Assembly (NCBI GenBank): GCA_030295235.1
Contig: AP026147.1
Location: 310,001-374,000 of the forward strand
Direction: 5' to 3'
Origin: Fistulifera solaris
Taxonomy: Eukaryota
Length of the DNA: 64,000 bases
Shown here: positions 1 through 58,716 of the stretch, in pieces
How the letters are laid out: every line of letters begins with the position of its first letter
Position numbering within the stretch: the first letter of the stretch is position 1
Translations under genes and position numbers: made by a program
Notes under the pieces: model-generated
The model's input: the letters and a program-made list of their open reading frames with translations, nothing else
Databases searched by the model: none
Told to the model about the DNA's origin: nothing

Positions 1-2406
1 GTGATATTGCTTGTCGGTGTCCCGTACTCAGTCGACGATGACTCTGATGGCACCTGTCCCGCAATCGTTGACAGTGCAGCAGCTCGCGATGGAACGGCGG
101 ATTCAGTCTTTTCAGAACTAGGAACTGCGTTATCTGTTTCACGGTTGAATGCAGTTCGATATTGCATGAAACGGGGCACAAATGGAGATTGGTCGTCTTT
201 CAATGTAGTATCCTGTTTGAACGATTCAATTGGTTGGCCGTCTTTAGAGATGGTCGGAACCATTTCGACGTCACCTACAAACGGTGCAGAAGCGGACGTG
301 GTTTCGAAAGGCTTAGCTTTGATAGAAGTCGTCTCCGCAGTCTTAGTACTGTGTGAACTATGTTTGCGCAACGAGTCACGGTACTGCATGTATCGTGGCA
401 CATCTGTGGACTTGTCGTCTTTATTCGTTATTGGGACTCCAGCAGCTGTATCTGCATCAAAACCTTTTGTCTCGATGTTGTCTGAACCGGATCCCGAACT
501 CAGATCTTTGGCCAGCGAACTTCTGTACTGCATGTAGCGCGGTATCGAAGTCGGGCGAGACGCTATTGATTCTGAGGTCGACGACGACGGGTCATTTTCT
601 GGAGTAACAACTTCTGATACTCCCCCTCTGAGAGGATGCTTTTGACGATTTGTCTGGTGACGAGAGTGAATTACGGTATTGCATATATCTGGGAATGCCC
701 GATGATTTTCCATCTTTGCTAGCTGAAAACATAGAGTTGCTTTCTGTCTCGGCTTCAGTAGTCGAAATGGTTCTTACAGCATTCATGGAAGTCCCTAGGG
801 GCTCAATGCGGGATATTGCTGGCTGCGCGTTTTCAAGACTTTCAGATCTGGAATCTTGTACGCTTCTCAATTTGTTCGCCGATTCCGCGCTGTTCACGCT
901 ACTTGGCGAGCCCTTGTCAAATCCTGACCCAGAAAGCTCCTTTGATAGCGTTTCGGTGTCAATACCGTCAAGATTTTGCGTAAGTCGAAGAAAAATTGCT
1001 TGGGCGGCCTCCTCTCCATGAATCTTTTCCAGATCGCGTAGAGCTGTGTTGATTGACTTCTTGAGCGCCTCCTTTTTAGCGGCAATCGCATCGTCAGTGG
1101 AGCCAGCGGCAGATATACTTTCCATTTCTTTTCTATACTTCGAAGTGTTGCAAGTGTTTCGTCATCTTCTGGAATGGCATCGTCTTGATCATATAATTCG
1201 CGAAACTTCTTTAAAGAAGATGACGTTTCCAATGCGTCGGCATCTCCTGCACTGTAAGCGTCTCGGAAATCCTTGTAAGAGCTTCGTTTGGATGCAGGAC
1301 TTTTCAGAATCGTGGCTTCTGGCTGCTGCTTCTCTTCTTGCTGAGGTTCTACCTGGTCCTGCTCTTTCGCTCGCTTTGAATCGGCGTTGCTTTTATCGTC
1401 GGTAGCTGAGCGCTTGGAGGGAGTTGCAGAGGCAGCCTCCATGTATGCATCAACGTTTTCGAGCATTTCCATTTCTTCATCTTCGTCAACATCGTCACCC
1501 GAGGACTCGTCACTACCCGATGAACTGGAGGATCCATAGTCTCCTTGGTAAAAATCATCATCTGACGACGTTGCGGATGCTTGGCTCTTATTCCCCGGCG
1601 TTGGCGGATGACCGAAAAATTCGGTCGACTCCGTTTCCGAATCGACTTCTTCCGTCACACCGAGCGTGCCTAACGTAGGTTTCGCCGCTGCTTTGACGGT
1701 AAAATGATCTCTTCTTCGCCACGACCCTTCATGATCTGGTTCCCCTTGAAAATGTTTCGAGTCCTCCTCCGAGATGCACGTGAGTGCTTCATCCACTGTT
1801 TCTTGGTCGGAACACTCCCTCTCGTCTTCGAACAAATTGTCTTGTTGTAGGGAATCTTCCAACATTCCTTCTTCGGGCGAAGAATCGTCCGGTATGGTGA
1901 CCGGCGGAGGGGGGCGGCGGTGGAGGTGCAGGAGTGGACTGTCTCGACGCCCGGGTTGGAGATGTGGATGCGAGGTACGTACCCAGCGAGCCCTTGGTCT
2001 GACTCGGACTTTCGGCACGAGTCTTTGGTTCGGTTCGCTTAGCGGCCGGTTCTTGCTGAAACACTTGACCCACTTCCATGCTTACCAGCGTGCCCTCTTG
2101 ACTGGATACTTCTTCTTCCACATACTCGACGGATTCCGACTCGTCTTCGTCTCCTTTTCGTGTATCCGATTGTGCTTTTGTGTTGCTGGCGCTAGTTGGA
2201 GCCGGAGGAACGTCTGCCTTGCCTTTCTTCTGGCCCAAGCACACCTTTTCATGCCCTCCACTCTTCCAGTCCCATTGCAAACAATGTTTACTGCAATACT
2301 GAGCCTCATTACAGTGCTCACAAGACAACATCCCTTCCGGAACATAAGACGCTTCGAATCCGCAAGCGTTGCAACGGATCTCGTTATCTGATCCGGAATC
2401 TGACAT
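1..2406 (-). CDS. Large low-complexity protein with N-terminal MYND zinc finger; 3' end runs off the window; split by 3 frameshifts
   Basis: ATG at 2406 (MSDSGSDNE). MYND pattern CNAC...CEHC..AQYCSKHCLQWDWKSGGHEKVC. ORFs 1789-2478, 894-2018, 592-1125 and an open frame below ~620 join through single-base shifts in homopolymers at ~1910, ~1130 and ~620. Confidence 0.8.
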
Positions 2407-3170
2407 CTCGATTGCCTCTGTTTTTGTCAACCTTCGAGGTGCTTGAGTAAATGAAACGACTTTTTCAAATGACTGCAATTAGACGCCGCAGACAATCCCT
2501 TCGCTTTCTCTCAACTCTATATGCCTTTCAGCTTGAATGGCAGGCTTTTCAACTCTTTATAAAGCAAGGTACCTTGGTATGAAGGTAGCACATGCAACAA
2601 ACATGACGGAATGATGAGCCTGCTTCTTGTCGGTCCGCCCTTGTACTATTTGAGTTTCTATTGATCCTGCCCCGTTCCGTGCTTGCTATGACTGGAATGA
2701 CCAACCGGGTCGCACCATCACTAAACTGTTAGAGGGTTTATCGATACAGTAGTTGAAAAAGAAGATTACTTTTTTCTATCTTGATTACGTAGAACGTGTT
2801 CTGATGCCGCCAAATCTTTCAAGTCCAAGTATTTTTGGCGGGAGTTTTGACTTCCGGCTAAGTATTCTTATTTGAGTAACGCGTGCATAAGCCAAAAATT
2901 CTTGGAGCGTTAAAAAGTCCTTAGGTAATAAAGTAGCTTAGCTAATTAAAAAGCACGCGCGATTACCCAACGGACATCGAGGCGGGTCGACCGATTTCCA
3001 ACCCGCTTTCACGACGTGTCACGTCAATTCAGGATTGAGCTAAATCATGAAACTTTCCCTACAAGTACAAGCCAGAAGTGCGATGTACGGAATATTGATA
3101 ATTTTGCGTGAAAAATGTACTATGAAAATTATGTTGAAACCGAAGCAAGAGACGACAAGGTCGTGTTCGC

Positions 3171-51538: not shown

Positions 51539-54211
51539 ATGATTATGGAGCCATCAGCTGATAAAGCGATCGGAATTGCCAAGTCTATGTCTCACGATGA
51601 GTCTATGGGTGGCAGTGAAAGCCGCGAAGAGAAACCTGGCCGTCGGGAAAAGAACGGCGGCGAACGAGAAAAGCTCTCGTATGAAAGGCGGTAACGAAGT
51701 GTTTCCACAGAATGGAGGACATTATGGATATCCTCAACAGCAGCATCAGCAGCAGAAAATAAACATGCGAGCCCCCCTACCCGATGGTCCGCGGTAACGC
51801 GCCTCCTCCCTATGGCTTTCCCCATCATGGTTTCATGGGCAACTCGTACGGTGGCCATCCGTCTCATTACCACGGCCACTTTCCTGTTCCACCGTATGGC
51901 GCTGGACCTTACGGGGGTGGTCATCCGGGAGCTATGAAAGCACCTGGTTACCATCCTCACCCGCATCACCATCACCCTCAGTACCAAGGCGCTCACTATG
52001 GAATACCACCGACCTACCCTCACAGCCACCCGCAAGGTCCTAGCTACGGAAGTCAAGTTAACCCTTCCGATTCAGCTTCGATTTCAAGTAAAAGCAGCAT
52101 GAACTCGAAAAAGAAGCGGACTTTCGACGGAGTACATGTAAATAGCCTTCCGAACTCTTATTCCTTTCGCCGAACTGACAGCAACAGCAGCACAGCTAGT
52201 ACGCTTACAGCTGGCAACAACACAAGCATGGAGACAAACCAAACCGATGATTCGCAGCAAAAGCGCGACCGGGATGAAAGTCTCTCTGGGGTTTTGAACA
52301 TGGATCGAATGGATTTTGATGATCGGCATATTCATCATGAAGTAAGAAATGGCAACCATAGACGGTCCCATTCGGGCGACTCGACCGCTTCAAGTCTAAG
52401 CGCTTGTGGTTTCAGCCTCGCGTCGATTGAGGGTCAGCATGGTATGTCATTGGAACTTGTTATGCTTTCCGTTCGTTATTGTGTTTCTCTGACAACGCTT
52501 TACAGATGATAGCAGCAAAGCATCAATCAAGCGACAGAAGAAACTGGTTGTTGATACCAGTGTGCGCCCTTCGTCGAGTTGTTCTCATTCTATTGACGTT
52601 GACCAATCCTCTAGATTTGAACAAATGTCGATAGAACACAAGCAACTAGATTCGAACACGTCTGCCGCCAGTTCCAACAGTGGGAGAAACATTTTTCTTG
52701 CCCTGTCATCCTCTCCGATGAATGCCGTTGACGTTGATGCTACTCCGCTAAAGACCAATACGACGAAGAAGACTGATCAGATTTTCAAAAGCAAAGGAAT
52801 TCAATCAACTGGTATGGACGGACACCCTCCGTCTGATACCCCGACACCTCCTGCCCATGTTGACATAGAAGACGCGGTCGTTCACGATGACCACAACATG
52901 TTGAATCGTCATCTCAGGGGTCAGTCTTTCACTCCCTTGCCTCATTTCTCTTCCGTAAATGTTCCTGGGGCGTCTCCCTCAAATGCCGCCTTTGCCTCTA
53001 TGATCAATCCACAACTCTCGTGGAGTATTGCGGGAGATACCCCATCGCTGGCAGACTTGGCTGAATGGGAGGACGATTCTAAATCCAAACAGCGACCCGG
53101 CTCTACTACAAGTATGGAGTCAAGACCTTTGCCCGTCAGTCCTCACGATTTCCAAGCTTGGAAGGAGGAACACGACATGGCTGATCATGCGATGAGTGGG
53201 ACGACAACGCCACTTCCTATGTTCTTTGAAAACGCAAATGAGTCAAACGAAAATCGACAGATGCCATCGTCAAGAAAGGCTGCTTCCCACGGCGATGTCC
53301 ATCCGTATTTTCCTGGTAGCTCGAATGTAAAACCACTACGTCCTGACCAGCATGGTCTGTGGAATCAGACGCCAATGTTCGTTGGTTCGGACGACAACAA
53401 CTACATGCCAAGTCCCCACGAGCGTGATTACTATGCTTATCACCACATGGGGCATGGCGGACCGGGTGATCGCATCAGGAATCTTCGTGGGCGTGTGCAT
53501 CCTGGCCATTCCTATCACCCAATGCCTATGCATATGGCTCCAACGATGTCCGGCCATCTTCCAATGACTTCTCCTATGGGAATGAATGGCGGAAAGGGCA
53601 TGTGGAGTCCGCACCCGGGAATGCAGGGAAGTATGGCTAGCCCTCACCACATGGGCTCCCCGCTAGCTGGTATGGCTCAGTCGAAGCGAAAATGCGTTCC
53701 CATCAAAGCTCCCATTCCGGCGAAGTTCCAAGGTGACATCGAGAAAAATAAGAGTCTTCCTGTTCCTGAATTTACCAGCCTTGTTAACTTTCCTTCTCAC
53801 ATGTCTCAGAAGCAAGCTGTTAACCTCCCTGATGGCATGCGTTGTTGTGTTATGTGCGGACAAGCATGCCCTTGCTCAACGGGAAACAAAGGAAAGAAGG
53901 GGAAATCTAAGGAAGGCGGTCTTCCAAACCAAAACGAACATCTCAGCGATAAGAACAGCGGATATGCCATCATTCCGTCTCAAAATAAAGGCCTATGTAC
54001 CCACTGTGACGTTAATGTCTGGGTCGTTGTTACTAGCGGCTTAGAAATCAAGTGGTGCAAGGGATGCAAGAATTTTCGGCCGTGGGCAGCCTTTGGGGAT
54101 AAAGGCCTCGCTACAAAGTGTCTAAGATGCCGTGAAAGACAACGCGAGAAGTATGCTCTTCAGAAGGAAGAAAAGGATAAGTCTCGCATCGAAACGGATA
54201 TCGTAGCATAA
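51539..54211 (+). CDS. Putative transcription factor: long disordered His/Pro/Gly-rich region plus C-terminal Cys-rich zinc-binding domain; intron 52442-52505; frameshifts ~51685 and ~51780
   Basis: Exons join in frame at G|AT. C-terminus CCVMCGQACPC...LCTHC...WCKGCKNF...KCLRCRERQREKY; basic clusters KKKR and KGKKGK. Confidence 0.8.
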
Positions 54212-54410: not shown

Positions 54411-55679
54411 TCACTTGCCGTGCTCCTTGAAGTTTCGAATTTTCCTCGCGGCTTCAGTGGCTTCGGGGTCGTAGACCGTCGTTTCATCGATAGGCCAGTC
54501 GTTTGCTTTGGCAACCTTTTCCGCTTTCTTGACGTCACTTTTCGATCGATTCATTCGCAGAAAATGCAGCATGAGTTGATTGTATACGTCCATTTTCCCC
54601 GGATAGCAATTGTGTAAACAATCGTCTTGGTGCGCACGATGCTCATCGGGACGAAGCATATTCAAGTAATACGCATCGATGATATTGTACTCGATTCCGG
54701 CCTTTTCCATTTCTTTCAATACCAGCTCATTCTGATGTTGATAATCGTACCAGTGAAAATTGATGGAGCGATTGTTGTAGAACGCCAAGTTGGCGACCCG
54801 TTCTTCCATCAACGCCAAATCATTGACCGGTTTGGAAAAGGTGCCGCATTCGGGATGACCCGGTACACTGGTGCGCCAAAAGAAATGACATTTCATGTGA
54901 TACTTTTGGTCGCAATCGTGAAGCCACTTCTGAACTTCTTGCAGATTGTGTCGAATATCGTCTAACAGAACCGTGTCATTCACGTAATGCGCCCCACGAT
55001 TGAGCACCAAGACGGTCGGGAAGGTCGACGCAATGGCATCCGTAACATTTTGCAATTTGTCGTCTCGACGATAGACGACGCGCGTCCGGCCTTTACAAAC
55101 CGACTGCGCAATGTTCATTTGCAATTCGCGGGATTGATGTTGATATCCTTGGTGTGTCTTCAAACCATTCAATTGAATCAACGAAGAGTAATGTTCCCAC
55201 GACAGTGAGTCGCCCACAATGGCGACCGTGGCTCCGCGCATTAGAGAACAGAACGTTTCTTGGTCCCAACGGGTCAATGTGCATTGTTTGTCGTGCGGTG
55301 ACCACCTGTACGTATCCCAGGGACCCTCTTTGTAATACAATTCGTGGGGATAACAGCGCAAATGCACGGTGGGTGTAATGTAGGGCGGCTTGGGAAGTTG
55401 TTCTTCGACCCATTTTCCGTGAATGATTTGTTCTCGCGTACAGAGTGGCTTCCGTCGTTCTATATTCGTTCCATTGTATTCTTCGTTGGCTAACACAAAT
55501 TGATGGTGTTCGGGAAGCGTGGGATGCACACGCAATTCTTTGGTTTCGACCGATTCGGGCGGATGTTGTTCCGATTCATTGACATTCCACGGCAGGATCC
55601 ACGATGCATCAAACCACGAAGCCGCTAAAAGGACCGAAACAAAGAGTCCGATCAAGCCACTACTGGCCGCTTTGGGCAT
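54411..55679 (-). CDS. TBL/PC-esterase putative O-acetyltransferase, paralog 2
   Basis: N-terminal TM segment; IVGDSL; VLNRGAHY; FFWRTSVPGH; RPDEH...DCLHNCYPG; long blocks identical to 49673-50926. Confidence 0.88.
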   Translation of the reverse strand: MPKAASSGLIGLFVSVLLAASWFDASWILPWNVNESEQHPPESVETKELRVHPTLPEHHQFVLANEEYNGTNIERRKPLCTREQIIHGKWVEEQLPKPPYITPTVHLRCYPHELYYKEGPWDTYRWSPHDKQCTLTRWDQETFCSLMRGATVAIVGDSLSWEHYSSLIQLNGLKTHQGYQHQSRELQMNIAQSVCKGRTRVVYRRDDKLQNVTDAIASTFPTVLVLNRGAHYVNDTVLLDDIRHNLQEVQKWLHDCDQKYHMKCHFFWRTSVPGHPECGTFSKPVNDLALMEERVANLAFYNNRSINFHWYDYQHQNELVLKEMEKAGIEYNIIDAYYLNMLRPDEHRAHQDDCLHNCYPGKMDVYNQLMLHFLRMNRSKSDVKKAEKVAKANDWPIDETTVYDPEATEAARKIRNFKEHGK

Positions 55680-56108
55680 TATTGTTTCGATACTTATTAT
55701 TATTGGAGGTTCTCAACCGCTTTTTCTGTCGCGCGTCGATTTCCTGCGTCTTGCGGATCAAAAAGGCTTCACTCGGGTCGAACGGCACCAGGTATGAGGC
55801 CGTCGTTCACAAAGGGATGTTCTTTGTATGTCACAAACACAATAAAACGGCTTGTGTGTCTATGATTTGCGCCTCATCGTCTTTTTTTTTCCTCCCTTGC
55901 AGACGTGTGTGATGATGGTGCAGGACTCAACGGTCGAAAAACAACAAAACGCGTGAGTCACGAGTCACGAGTCATTGAAAGGTTGCTATAGAGTGTGGAA
56001 AACAATTCGACTACTCTAGAGAGGGTTACGAAAGTGCCGTTCAACAAAACTATTAATGTTACGCCATAGCTACGTGTGAACAGATCCAGTCTATTATAAG
56101 CATTACGT

Positions 56109-58716
56109 TCAACTCAGCCAAACATCTTCTACGTCCTTTTCGCTAAATTTGTTGTTGCATGTAGGACACTTGCGACTGCGGTTACTGATTCTCTCGTCCA
56201 CGCACTGCTTACAGTGCATGTGCCGACAGCGCATGATGATGCATTCCTTGTCTCGATAGTGACACACCGGACACGCGAGACGATCTTTCAAAACAGAGAT
56301 TTGGGTGTTGAGTTGATCCACCGTAAAACTAGAAGCCCCCACTCGGACATCTCCTCCCGTTGAACTATGCATGATTTTATTCAAATTCTCTTTCGTGCTT
56401 TGTGCCTCGCGCTCGGTCTGATGCAGCGAATCCAACAGTTTCCGGATCTCTTCGTCCTTTGCTTCCAATTCTGACACCAATTCGTTGCACCGCTTGACGC
56501 TGTTCTCAAACTTGGACTGCAGTGCCGAAACCTTGCCGCTTCCTTCCGACAAATCGGTAGAAAGCTTGTTAAGCTCATTCTTTATTCGCGTCGTTTCTTT
56601 TCGGATAAAGACAACTTTTCTTCGAGTGATTCTTTCTCCTTGATCATCTCTTCGGATACTCTCGCTTTCGCATTACTCGCCAGTCGCGCGGCAAGGGCCA
56701 GCTGACTGGCACTCTTGGCTTGTTGCTCCAGATTTTCGTTCTCTAGCTTGAGTTTCTCAGTGAGACTCTTCAAGTGCAATATTGTTGACAGTGATTTCGC
56801 ATTCATTTCGTCCTTTTCCTTTATTTGCTGCAATAGCCGCGAGTTCGTGGCGATGATAGCGTCGCGGTCCTTCTCCGCTCTTTCGAGTTTGCCTTTCAGA
56901 CTATCTATTTTCGTATTCAATGCGCTGATTTCTTTTCGAGCCTTTCGATGATTCTTGTACTCTCTATCATACTTTTCCTTGTCGACTTTGTCCATACTGG
57001 AAGTTTCCTCCGCATTTCCGTCACCCTCGCTCGATAACGGCATGACTTCGGGTTTCTCTGGAGGTGTAGTATTATTTTCACACGTGCTTTGCAGGGCTGC
57101 GTATTTCGACTTGAGATCTTCCAGCTTTGATTGCAGGTCATGGTTCAATTCCAGGGATGTTGCCAAGGTACATCGAATTACTTCGGCCTGACGAACATTC
57201 TCCAATGCTTGACTCAGTTTGTGTTCCAATTCAGCTATCCTCTCAGCGTTCACAATTCTGGAAGGTTGAATGCCCAATAAATCACCATTCGAAGCCTCTC
57301 CATCCACGTCTGTGTTCTCTGCAAGCTCCGACCATCGTTTCTCAAACTTCGTCAGCTGTTCCTCTATGGACGCCATTGCAGACTTTTCATTGCCTATTGC
57401 TTGTGCCCACTTTTCTCGAGTACTTTCCACTTCCTTTTCGAGTTCCAACACCTGTTTTTCTTTGAGCTTTAAAGACGCGCGTGTCGCTTCAAAAGACTGC
57501 AATTTTTCGGCGTCCTCTGCCGACTGCTGAGAAAGTGACAATTGGTTTAATAGCAGCTCCTTTTCTTTCAGCTTTCCCCTCAACTGCAAGTTAAAATAGA
57601 AAAAAATTTAGGCGTGAGTAAATTTTTTTCTCACAAATATACATTCTTGCACTGCGCGCGACAAGTATTTACAACGCACCTCTTCTATTGATCCATCGCG
57701 ATTTCTCAATGTTGCTTCCAGGTTGGCAATTTTTGATTCATATTCGGTCACTTTCGATTCAGACACGGCTGGTGTTGTCGCATCGACCGGTGCTACGTTC
57801 GATGTGGCGCTCGCCAGATCCTCTTCTTGTTTCACTTTTTCTCGTGTCTCTAATCTGACTTGCAACCATTCGTCGTCCCCCTCCTGGTCCAACGTTTGCA
57901 TGGCTTGCTCTGTCGTCAAAATCCCTACCGATATGCGATATAAATTCCGCCTTAACTTGCGCTCTTTGCTGGCAATTTGATCACGTGCTTGGGTCAGTTC
58001 TGCTACTTGTGTTTCTAAAAACCGGGCATGCATCTGCGACTCGGCCAGTTGTTTCGAAAATTGCGCAGTTTCGATGGCTTCAGCAGACGGAGGAGATGAA
58101 TGGAACGCTGTTAGTATGCATTCTTGTAAAGTATTGGCTCGAGCTGTCACATTCGCAGAAAGTTGGGATAAATCACTGTAAAATTGATCGGTGCTGTCCG
58201 CCGGACGGCGCCCCAAACCGGCCAGAGCCTCCGCCAGTGCTCGGGTCCATTCCATACTACTACTACTGCTACTATTACCCGTCACGGCCGGAGCCCCCGA
58301 CTCCATCATGGACGGCAGTGGTGGCGGTGCCGCGGAAGCCAACAAGGCGGTCTCCAATTGCGTCCACGTCGCCTGCAACGAGTTCAAGGCCTGACACGCC
58401 GCCCAGCATTCTTGTCGACGATAATCGCGTTCTTTTCCAATGCCTTGGTCGTGTCTTGTAATGACAATAATTCGGTCGCCAGCGCTCGATTTTGATGCTT
58501 CAAATAAAATGCATCATTGTCCTCATTGACTTGAGAAGCCATTGCCGTAATTCGTTTTTGTCGTTTGGCTGGTGAAGTCGGTGTAGCGGAGGAAGGAATA
58601 GCGTCATCCGGAACGGCCGATGCGCTCAATTCGAGACGAGGAACTTTAGTGGGTTCCGCCACCGAAGGCGGCGGCGGCAGCGATTGCTTCGCTCGTTCGG
58701 CCAGGGCTCGTTTCAT
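56109..58716 (-). CDS. BRE1: BRE1-like H2B E3 ubiquitin ligase; intron 57584-57679; frameshifts ~58420 and ~56590
   Basis: N-terminal LKHQNRALA, long coiled coils, N.RLLQQI.EKDEMN, and C-terminal RING CPVC...C.HMHCKQC.....NRSRKCPTC..F...DV. Confidence 0.85.

What the first reader, a model, noticed from the sequence alone, without database searches (positions are those of the whole stretch)
53835..54175. SBP-box-like zinc finger in a non-green alga
Seen: CCVMCGQACPC-(basic insert)-GLCTHC-x16-CKGCKNFRPWAAFGDKGLATKCLRCRERQREKY. Established: the SBP domain, usually regarded as green-lineage specific, reads roughly VCxxH-x15[14 protein letters not shown]...SCRxxLxxHNxRRRK, with a VVVxGxxxRF hairpin. 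Here VVVTSGLEIKW-CKGC-KNF....AF and the final basic helix line up with it, with Cys instead of His ligands. The rest of the ~870-aa protein is disordered with many SP/TP sites. Inference: a divergent all-Cys SBP relative or an undescribed stramenopile zinc-finger TF family. The resemblance is by eye only.
Basis: partly seen in the sequence, partly recalled or inferred. Interest (0 to 1): 0.75.

Follow-up and report, generated by a model that had tools for sequence, protein, structure and literature searches.

The report
Diatom SBP-like two-zinc regulator family
A diatom gene ends in a strongly conserved, unnamed two-zinc domain whose predicted shape resembles the plant SBP DNA-binding domain more than any other solved structure, which points to a large overlooked family of probable gene regulators in diatoms.

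Summary
The motif is in the window exactly as described. It closes a two-exon gene of about 868 aa. It belongs to a ~165-aa domain (window 53687-54184) found in 564 protein clusters; the named members are pennate and centric diatoms. No Pfam model matches. Eight conserved Cys form four CxxC pairs.

Sequence support is weak. The Pfam SBP model hits 0 of 53 members. hhalign against a verified SBP profile gives P 0.014-0.037 (probability 1.4-3.1%). Nine of 300 column shuffles score as well. SBP's zinc-binding His and its GTAC-contacting residues are replaced.

A rival signal covers finger 2. It gives weak, recurrent matches to zinc ribbons of phage and giant-virus endonucleases and to Stc1-labelled clusters.

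Verdict: a real, unannotated diatom zinc-finger family, probably DNA-binding, with an SBP-like architecture. It is not a member of the SBP family as defined. Common ancestry remains open.

The parts
51539..52441 (+). Exon 1 (inferred). ATG at 51539. As assembled, the window reads it in three frames.
   Evidence: ORFs and sequence. One X1 contig lacks a base at 51669 (A run) and another lacks a base at 51772 (C run), which joins the frames. tblastn of the 861-aa homologue P0006 covers 51796-52470.
52442..52505 (+). Inferred 64-nt GT..AG intron
   Evidence: GT at 52442 and AG at 52504-52505. Frame C joins the exon-2 frame through a split GAT codon. The transcript-derived homologue P0054 aligns on both sides with 3 residues between. 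No RNA read evidence.
52506..54211 (+). Exon 2 with stop codon. Mostly low-complexity and disordered, with short conserved motifs, then the zinc domain.
   Evidence: 572-aa open frame 52493-54211. Consensus motifs LNxHLRGQSFTPLP, PQLSWSIAGD and DRVRNLRGR in 56 orthologues.
53687..54184 (+). Whole conserved domain (P0001 residues 10-175)
   Evidence: AlphaFold2 with 150 sequences: mean pLDDT 85.6, pTM 0.77, low only in 73-104. Conservation.
53687..53836 (+). N-terminal extension of the domain (residues 10-59): strand 12-14, helices 27-30, 38-41 and 46-55. It has no SBP counterpart.
   Evidence: Blocks of pLDDT 95-97. The motif is also conserved in divergent members.
53846..53857 (+). First Cys pair C63-x2-C66 (CVMC), on hairpin 60-72
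   Evidence: >=90% conserved. Strands 60-62 and 69-72.
53876..53971 (+). Variable basic insert (residues 73-104), predicted disordered, NLS-like K-rich
   Evidence: Length and sequence vary between members. pLDDT 50-72. 6 K+R against 3 D+E.
53996..54007 (+). Second Cys pair C113-x2-C116 (CTHC), at the start of short helix 114-118
   Evidence: Invariant Cys, variable third position. Aligned to the SBP C-x2-H.
54017..54082 (+). Three-stranded antiparallel sheet (120-123, 129-133, 138-141). It carries the third Cys pair C133-x2-C136 (CKGC, 54056-54067).
   Evidence: This is the segment aligned to SBP by phmmer and hhalign.
54119..54130 (+). Fourth Cys pair C154-x2-C157 (CLRC), at the start of the C-terminal helix
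   Evidence: Invariant. Helix 155-182.
54122..54205 (+). Long basic C-terminal helix (residues 155-182), RCRERQREKYAxQK conserved
   Evidence: pLDDT 90-98. R158, Y165 invariant; R160, Q161, K164, A166 and K169 kept in >=90% of rows.

Best explanation
The gene encodes a long, mostly disordered nuclear regulator of about 868 aa. Its C-terminal ~165 residues form a two-zinc DNA-binding domain.

Four CxxC pairs most likely bind two zinc ions in sequence:
- C63/C66 (hairpin knuckle) with C113/C116 (helix start).
- C133/C136 (knuckle between strands 2 and 3) with C154/C157 (start of the long helix).

The core is a hairpin, a short helix, a three-stranded sheet and a basic helix. It is arranged like the plant SBP domain, with three differences: all ligands are Cys, a 32-residue basic loop sits inside finger 1, and a 50-residue N-terminal cap is added.

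By analogy with the SBP-DNA complex, the CKGCK knuckle and the basic helix RCRERQREKY would lie in the major groove. The residues that read GTAC in SBP are replaced, so the target sequence should differ.

Shown here: the gene, the conservation, the Cys pattern, the confident model and its nearest solved fold. Inferred: zinc binding, the ligand pairing, DNA binding, nuclear role and any common ancestry with SBP (my estimate 40-50%).
For: - Motif and gene.
- Family size: 319 hits and 564 clusters at 50% identity.
- Named members are all diatoms apart from one label cut off in the output: Nitzschia, a Bacillariaceae MAG, Cylindrotheca, Entomoneis, Stauroneis, Fragilariopsis, Attheya, Chaetoceros.
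- Cys conservation: six invariant, two at >=90%.
- Model: pLDDT 85.6, pTM 0.77.
- Foldseek against 350,542 PDB chains: 11 of the 37 listed rows are SBP chains, including ranks 1-7. Best is AtSPL13 8j4b_B at E 0.074, prob 0.92, rmsd 1.9 A over 45 columns.
- The model's hairpin, short helix and three-stranded sheet fit the published description of SBP (PMC10796333, passages).
- hhalign against 28 SBP domains, all confirmed as PF03110: the best local alignment is VTSGLEIKWCKGCKNFRPWAAFGD against the [16 protein letters not shown] region, P 0.014-0.037.
- The relaxed alignment is collinear. It puts C66, C113, C116, C133, C136 and C157 on SBP ligands C8, C25, H28, C44, C47 and C63.
- Charge: 23 K+R against 12 D+E in the folded part.
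- Architecture typical of transcription factors: 63 of 66 long members have no other Pfam domain at E<=1e-3.
Against: - The Pfam SBP model matches 0 of 53 members at E<=10, and does not match the window's protein.
- The family profile finds no SBP chain among PDB sequences.
- Single-sequence phmmer finds the SBP chain 21ch_A in only 2 of 4 members tried, at E 0.77-0.95. Ribosomal protein S20 scores better in three searches.
- hhalign probability is only 1.4-3.1%. Nine of 300 column-shuffled SBP profiles score as high. All the signal lies in finger 2; finger 1 alone gives P 0.18.
- SBP's ligand His51 aligns with R140. The residues that contact GTAC bases in SlSPL-CNR are replaced. They are Gln94, Gln95, Ser97, His119 and Arg123, which are Q45, Q46, S48, H70 and R74 of my alignment; they align to K134, G135, K137, K164 and Q168.
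- Language-model features place the domain nearest to Stc1-labelled clusters, not SBP.
- Earlier notes of this scan show SBP structures turning up as the nearest hit for unrelated small zinc proteins.
- No direct evidence here of zinc binding, DNA binding or expression.
Confidence: 0.5

Rival explanations
1. The domain is a tandem of generic Cys4 treble-clef or zinc-ribbon fingers. These are of the type attached to phage and giant-virus HNH/endonuclease VII enzymes and catalogued in eukaryotes as the Stc1 type. The likeness to SBP is then shared architecture of small two-zinc domains, not specific kinship. The domain would still most likely bind nucleic acid.
For: - PHROG scan of 53 members: phrog_29874 (unknown function) matches 41, phrog_22955 matches 13, phrog_2340 'endonuclease' matches 11 (best E 2.7e-4), phrog_1035 and phrog_2633 'endonuclease VII' match 4 each (best 7.5e-4), and Lar-like phrog_5558 matches 5.
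- The matches to phrog_29874, phrog_2340 and phrog_1035 fall on finger 2 plus the helix, for example P0001 129-174.
- Control: 28 SBP domains give 0 hits to these PHROGs and at most 2 members on any family.
- Foldseek against predicted viral structures: 315 hits at E<=10. Fifteen of the 50 listed rows are named endonuclease or HNH. Local matches reach prob 0.98-0.99, for example a Barrevirus protein at rmsd 1.2 A, 46 columns, 35% identity.
- ESM Atlas: the nearest named clusters are 'Stc1 domain-containing' at 0.87-0.89 (diatom) and 0.86 (haptophyte). PF12898 is carried by 34-45% of their members.
- All eight ligands are Cys, as recalled for Stc1.
Against: - Pfam Stc1 (PF12898) matches 0 of 53 members at E<=10.
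- Each PHROG E-value is weak. The 53 members are related, so recurrence is not independent. Those endonuclease-type matches cover only finger 2.
- No BFVD hit reaches E<=1e-3.
- No nuclease domain is present.
- The two fingers are not detectably repeats of each other: 17 of 200 shuffles reach the observed score.
- Atlas scores under 0.9 are leads only.
Confidence: 0.3
2. The domain is a protein-protein or RNA-binding adaptor rather than a DNA-binding transcription-factor domain. The tandem fingers of fission-yeast Stc1 are recalled to bind Argonaute, and SBP zinc fingers can serve as a docking surface for the effector SAP05.
For: - Stc1-labelled clusters are the nearest named neighbours by language-model features.
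- The solved SBP chains that match best are in protein complexes with SAP05.
- Nothing here tests DNA binding.
Against: - Strongly basic conserved surface and a basic terminal helix.
- Both structural neighbours, SBP and the endonuclease-attached ribbons, act on DNA.
- A long disordered region followed by one terminal folded domain is typical of transcription factors.
Confidence: 0.12
3. The domain is a cross-braced RING/PHD-like two-zinc module, for example an E3 ligase or histone reader.
For: - Four CxxC pairs could in principle be cross-braced.
- 2 of 53 members give zf-C3HC4_3 at E 3.6.
- PHD fingers appear among weak Foldseek rows at E 4-10.
Against: - Those hits are at chance level.
- The variable 16-40-residue spacing between pairs 2 and 3 and the 46-residue gap in finger 1 do not fit RING or PHD spacing.
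Confidence: 0.03

Closest known systems
SBP domain of plant SPL transcription factors (Pfam PF03110; solved as SPL4 1ul4, SPL7 1ul5, SPL12 1wj0, SPL5 8j49/8pfc, SPL13 8j4b, 21ch)
   Same: - Two zinc sites built from eight ligands in the same order along the chain.
- A hairpin and short helix, then a three-stranded antiparallel sheet, then a basic C-terminal segment.
- Shared core motif [WF]-C-x2-C-x2-F-x2-[WL]-x2-F.
- 59-61 of 65-66 SBP residues superpose at 2.3-2.6 A on the model.
   Different: - No match to the Pfam model.
- All-Cys ligands. The Zn2 His is replaced by Arg, and an extra Cys two residues before the last ligand takes its place.
- The first pair is spaced x2, not x4.
- A 32-residue disordered insert lies in finger 1.
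- A 50-residue N-terminal cap and a 28-residue helix are added.
- The GTAC-reading residues are not kept.
- Found in diatoms, where a published survey counted 0 SBP genes in stramenopiles (PMC4827209, passages).
Cys4 zinc-ribbon modules at the N-terminus of phage and giant-virus HNH/endonuclease VII proteins (PHROGs 2340, 1035, 2633; phrog_29874 of unknown function)
   Same: Finger 2 plus its helix (about residues 129-174) gives weak, recurrent HMM matches and local Foldseek matches of 44-57 columns at up to 35% identity.
   Different: - No nuclease domain.
- Only one of the two fingers is covered.
- E-values are never better than 2.7e-4.
- No relative was found in viral contigs.
Stc1 domain (Pfam PF12898; fission-yeast Stc1 tandem zinc finger, 2luy)
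   Same: Eight Cys in four CxxC pairs arranged as two consecutive fingers. Nearest named clusters by protein-language-model features, at 0.86-0.89.
   Different: - The Pfam model matches 0 of 53 members.
- Poor superposition on 2luy.
- Stc1's function as an RNAi-chromatin adaptor is recalled, not tested here.

Membership tests
SBP domain (PF03110) | Match to the Pfam SBP profile at or above its curated cut-off | tested here: not met
   0 families for the window's protein at E<=10. SBP matched 0 of 53 family members at E<=10. Positive control: 28 of 28 metagenomic SBP domains match at E down to 1.2e-35.
SBP domain (PF03110) | Ligand signature Zn1 Cys3His (Cys4 in one land-plant group) and Zn2 Cys2HisCys (PMC10796333, passages) | tested here: not met
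   All conserved ligands are Cys. SBP His51 aligns with R140. A Cys4 first site is tolerated in SBP, but the Zn2 signature is not kept.
SBP domain (PF03110) | Fold: antiparallel loops and short helices, then a three-stranded antiparallel sheet; the first four ligands bind one zinc and the last four bind the other | tested here: inconclusive
SBP domain (PF03110) | Significant profile-profile similarity to an SBP alignment | tested here: inconclusive
   hhalign gives P 0.014-0.037, probability 1.4-3.1%, over 24-34 columns. Nine of 300 column shuffles score as high or higher.
SBP domain (PF03110) | Residues that read the GTAC core: the Gln-Gln and Ser of CQQCS, and His and Arg of the C-terminal GHNxRRR (SlSPL-CNR-DNA structure, PMC13458263, passages) | tested here: not met
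   A numbering offset of 49 maps the paper's residues onto invariant columns of A4. The aligned family residues are K134, G135, K137, K164 and Q168. The C-terminal part of that alignment is low-confidence.
SBP domain (PF03110) | Binding to GTAC-core DNA; nuclear import through the C-terminal bipartite NLS | not testable with these tools
   Basic residues are present (R156, R158, R160, R162, K164, K169). There is no KR...RRRK-type bipartite signal and no assay.
Stc1 domain (PF12898) | Match to the Pfam Stc1 profile | tested here: not met
   0 of 53 members at E<=10. None among 66 long members at E<=1e-3.
Stc1 domain (PF12898) | Tandem Cys4 fingers structurally like 2luy | tested here: inconclusive
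Phage endonuclease VII / HNH endonucleases with N-terminal zinc ribbon | Presence of the nuclease catalytic domain | tested here: not met
   No nuclease family in Pfam scans. The protein ends 26 residues after C157.
Phage endonuclease VII / HNH endonucleases with N-terminal zinc ribbon | Sequence similarity of the zinc ribbon itself | tested here: inconclusive
   41, 13, 11, 4 and 4 of 53 members match phrog_29874, 22955, 2340, 1035 and 2633. Best E is 2.7e-4. The SBP control gives 0 of 28.

The most novel reading that the evidence does not exclude
The SBP superfamily is not confined to the green lineage. Diatoms would carry a large, fast-diverged, all-Cys branch of it. That branch would either descend from a finger shared with endonuclease-type zinc ribbons or have arrived by ancient transfer from a green alga. 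It has since acquired an N-terminal cap and a new DNA-reading surface, so it forms a major diatom-specific class of transcription factors missing from every published diatom TF census.
Probability: 0.35. Interest if true: 0.8.

Novelty: new variant of a known kind. Interest (0 to 1): 0.6.

Why it matters
Censuses of diatom transcription factors rely on Pfam-type models. The survey I read counts no SBP genes outside Chlamydomonas among its seven algae (PMC4827209). A family with hundreds of sequence clusters across pennate and centric diatoms, a confidently predicted two-zinc fold and no annotation would be a sizeable gap in those censuses.

If the SBP-like architecture reflects ancestry, it changes the picture of a textbook 'plant-specific' DNA-binding domain. 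It would also give a test case for how zinc ligands and base-reading residues are swapped while a fold is kept.

If the domain derives instead from endonuclease-type zinc ribbons, it would parallel the proposed origin of other plant transcription-factor domains from mobile-element nucleases (recalled).

In either case the domain is small, well defined and directly testable by DAP-seq in model diatoms.

Tried and rejected
- **First AlphaFold2 run.** With 56 close orthologues it was poor (mean pLDDT 50.4). Only the 150-sequence alignment gave a usable model.
- **Full-length family profile against PDB sequences.** 0 hits.
- **Domain profile against PDB sequences.** Only ribosomal S20, at E 0.53.
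- **Global hhalign against SBP.** Nothing (P 0.64).
- **Reversed SBP profile control.** P 0.69.
- **Internal duplication of the two fingers.** Not supported; 17 of 200 shuffles reach the observed score.
- **Receiver-domain fusion.** P0081 (1 of the 120 listed hits) carries a receiver domain. It is a truncated, bacterial-looking receiver (profile 1-88 of 111) on a 2.5-kb metagenome contig. I treat it as a probable chimera, not as evidence of function.
- **Paralogue in the window.** None. The only weak tblastn hit (1920-2000, E 0.15) lies antisense to a MYND-finger ORF.
- **Relatives in viral contigs.** 36 pattern matches, none confirmed.
- **tblastn against phage genomes.** 13 Pbunavirus hits at E about 1. 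The one I inspected (H1, Pseudomonas phage BL1) lies antisense to the annotated genes, so I treat them as spurious.
- **Whole genome.** Not held.
- **Earlier notes of this scan.** None near this place or like this sequence.
- **RNA evidence.** No RNA holder is listed. Run X1 looks like DNA, because one contig runs unbroken through the inferred intron. Splicing and expression therefore remain untested.
- **Other zinc-finger classes considered by eye.** GATA (the C-x2-C-x17-C-x2-C spacing of finger 2), LIM, nuclear-receptor, DM and B-box fingers. None has Pfam or fold support.
- **Paper PMC5156380.** Its 'SBP' means a bisphosphatase, so it is irrelevant.
Full report
**Observation.** The + strand of window 53660-54208 translates without a stop to a 183-aa C-terminal piece (P0001). 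It reads ...MRCCVMCGQACPCSTGNKGKKGKSKEGGLPNQNEHLSDKNSGYAIIPSQNKGLCTHCDVNVWVVVTSGLEIKWCKGCKNFRPWAAFGDKGLATKCLRCRERQREKYALQKEEKDK..., and the stop is at 54209-54211.

**Gene model.**
- Exon 2 is the 572-aa open frame 52493-54211.
- A 64-nt GT..AG intron (52442-52505) joins it in frame to an upstream frame. The transcript-derived homologue P0054 and the 861-aa homologue P0006 align on both sides of it.
- Upstream, the window reads in three frames. Contigs of public run X1 lack one base at 51669 (an A run) and one at 51772 (a C run). Each difference rests on one contig.
- X1 behaves like DNA, because one contig crosses the intron unbroken. Splicing and expression are therefore not shown.
- A public protein (P0002, 549 aa, 99.5% identical) starts at an internal Met at 52562.
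- The 395 aa of exon 2 before the domain are low-complexity and hold 8 SP and 7 TP.

**Family.**
- No Pfam family matches the protein at E<=10.
- A word-indexed search with the last 173 residues found 319 proteins at E<=1e-3. The best 120 are 66-100% identical.
- An exhaustive phmmer over 1.84 billion cluster representatives found 564 at E<=1e-3, 382 at E<=1e-10 and 163 at E<=1e-30. Only the best 150 were shown, so I could not inspect the weak tail.
- The named members come from Nitzschia, a Bacillariaceae MAG, Cylindrotheca, Entomoneis, Stauroneis, Fragilariopsis (FRACYDRAFT_239052), Attheya and Chaetoceros. One further label is cut off in the output. The family therefore spans pennate and centric diatoms.
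- Most members are unnamed metagenome proteins, so the true taxonomic range is unknown.
- Of 66 representatives of 400 aa or more, 63 have no Pfam domain at E<=1e-3. One carries an HA domain.

**Conserved anatomy.**
- In the 150-sequence alignment C113, C116, C133, C136, C154 and C157 are invariant, and C63 and C66 are kept in >=90% of rows.
- The spacing is C63-x2-C66-x46-C113-x2-C116-x16-C133-x2-C136-x17-C154-x2-C157.
- The His of CTHC varies freely, and the 'ACPC' cysteines are often lost.
- The stretch between C66 and C113 contains a variable K-rich insert.
- The loop between VWVV and EIKW takes insertions of up to about 25 residues.
- An upstream motif (KCxPLxxPIPxKFQGD...VPEFxxLVNFP) is conserved with the fingers.

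**Predicted structure.**
- With 56 close orthologues the AlphaFold2 model was poor (pLDDT 50.4).
- With 150 more diverse sequences it became confident: mean pLDDT 85.6, pTM 0.77, low only in the insert 73-104.
- Elements in order: strand 12-14; helices 27-30, 38-41 and 46-55; hairpin 60-62/69-72 carrying C63/C66; short helix 114-118 starting at C113/C116; strands 120-123, 129-133 and 138-141 with C133/C136 between the last two; short helix 142-145; a long helix 155-182 starting at C154/C157.
- Each CxxC knuckle followed by a CxxC at a helix start is the usual treble-clef geometry. I therefore infer sequential pairing (1+2 and 3+4). I had no coordinates to measure it.

**Tests of the SBP reading: structure.**
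- Foldseek against 350,542 PDB chains gave no hit at E<=1e-3. Ranks 1-7, 9, 10, 15 and 33 are SBP domains, which is 11 of the 37 listed rows. The best is AtSPL13 at E 0.074, prob 0.92, rmsd 1.9 A over 45 columns.
- The model's layout fits the published description of SBP: antiparallel loops and short helices, then a three-stranded sheet (PMC10796333, passages).

**Tests of the SBP reading: sequence.**
- Pfam SBP matches 0 of 53 members at E<=10.
- Family profiles find no SBP chain among PDB sequences.
- Single-sequence phmmer finds the SBP chain 21ch_A for 2 of 4 members, at E 0.95 and 0.77. These hits are at noise level and are outscored by ribosomal S20.
This gave 65 loci. I aligned 28 complete ones and confirmed all 28 as PF03110.
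- hhalign of the family against this profile gives one local alignment, VTSGLEIKWCKGCKNFRPWAAFGD against [24 protein letters not shown]. P is 0.014-0.037 and probability 1.4-3.1%.
- Nine of 300 column-shuffled SBP profiles score as well. The similarity is suggestive, not significant.
- The signal comes from finger 2 alone.
- With a relaxed threshold the alignment is collinear. C66, C113, C116, C133, C136 and C157 fall on SBP ligands C8, C25, H28, C44, C47 and C63. SBP's ligand H51 falls on R140.

**DNA-reading residues.** The SlSPL-CNR SBP-DNA crystal structure paper (PMC13458263, passages) names Gln94, Gln95, Ser97, His119 and Arg123 as base contacts. A long helix and a loop lie in the major groove. 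An offset of 49 maps these residues onto invariant Q45, Q46, S48, H70 and R74 of my SBP alignment. The family has K134, G135, K137, K164 and Q168 at those positions. If the docking mode is kept, the specificity is not GTAC.

**The rival signal.**
- The ESM Atlas puts the domain nearest to unnamed diatom clusters. Among named clusters, the nearest are 'Stc1 domain-containing' clusters of diatoms and haptophytes at 0.86-0.89, with PF12898 on 34-45% of members. Scores under 0.9 are leads only.
- Pfam Stc1 matches 0 of 53 members, and solved Stc1 (2luy) superposes badly.
- Foldseek against predicted viral structures gives 315 hits at E<=10, none at E<=1e-3. Fifteen of the 50 listed rows are HNH or endonuclease proteins of phages and giant viruses. 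Local matches reach prob 0.98-0.99 over 46-53 columns.
- PHROG profiles give recurrent weak hits on finger 2 plus the helix. phrog_29874 matches 41 of 53 members, phrog_2340 'endonuclease' matches 11 of 53 (best E 2.7e-4), and two 'endonuclease VII' families match 4 of 53 each.
- As a control, 28 SBP domains give none of these hits.
- The members are related, so the recurrence is not independent evidence.
- Earlier notes of this scan, which are unchecked, link such viral ribbons to the Stc1 type. They also show SBP structures as the nearest hit for unrelated small zinc proteins. Both points counsel caution.

**Reading.** The gene is real, and the domain defines a large, unannotated diatom family. 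The best-supported description is a two-zinc, all-Cys domain with an SBP-like overall architecture. Its second finger also resembles the DNA-binding zinc ribbons of viral endonucleases. Both sets of neighbours act on DNA. The folded part is basic (23 K+R against 12 D+E), and the protein has the build of a transcription factor. I therefore put DNA binding at about two in three. The domain fails the defining tests of the SBP family (profile match, Zn2 ligand signature, GTAC-reading residues), so I do not file it as a member. Common ancestry is open, at 40-50%.

**Literature.** Searches for SBP with diatoms or stramenopiles found no description of such a domain. A seven-alga TF survey lists SBP as 0 in haptophytes, stramenopiles and a red alga, and 23 in Chlamydomonas (PMC4827209, passages). 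I read no supplements. Subscription-only papers, such as the original SBP structure papers, were not available to me.

Noticed in passing
window 51669 and 51772: Contigs of run X1 have one base fewer than the window at an A run and at a C run. The window as assembled breaks the 5' part of the gene into three frames. These are probably homopolymer length errors or alleles.
   Followed up: partly
window 53898: One X1 contig, which also carries several substitutions, has an extra G behind 53898, inside the variable basic insert of the domain. Taken alone it would shift the frame. It may be a second allele or copy, or a contig error.
   Followed up: no
window 52562-54208: A public protein record (P0002, 549 aa, 99.5% identical) starts at an internal Met. 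It misses exon 1 and about 320 N-terminal residues of the model proposed here.
   Followed up: partly
window 52508-53690 (exon 2 before the domain): Short motifs conserved among 56 orthologues in an otherwise disordered region: LNxHLRGQSFTPLP, PQLSWSIAGDxPSLxDLAxW, TTPLPxFF and DRVRNLRGR. They may be docking or phosphorylation motifs.
   Followed up: no
proteins P0184, P0185, P0221, P0223, P0241, P0253 and others (alignment A2): A paralogous subgroup (HIIPRQNKG..CTACDV.VWV) carries an extra conserved C-terminal motif, LAAxxGLxxLMxA, that is absent from the window's protein.
   Followed up: no
window 54414-55712 (-): The convergent neighbour is a 433-aa ORF with a PC-Esterase domain (PF13839, E 2.5e-14).
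   Followed up: partly
window 56112-57607 (-): Long coiled-coil ORFs ending in a C3HC4 RING finger (PF13920, E 2.6e-7). By eye this is a Bre1-like E3 ligase gene, split by an intron or frame change near 56580-56670.
   Followed up: partly
window 1792-2478 (-): ORF with a MYND zinc finger (PF01753, E 1.8e-5). It is unrelated to the finding.
   Followed up: partly
protein P0081: One metagenome protein joins a truncated, bacterial-looking response-regulator receiver (residues 4-93) to a family member. This is probably a chimeric contig.
   Followed up: partly
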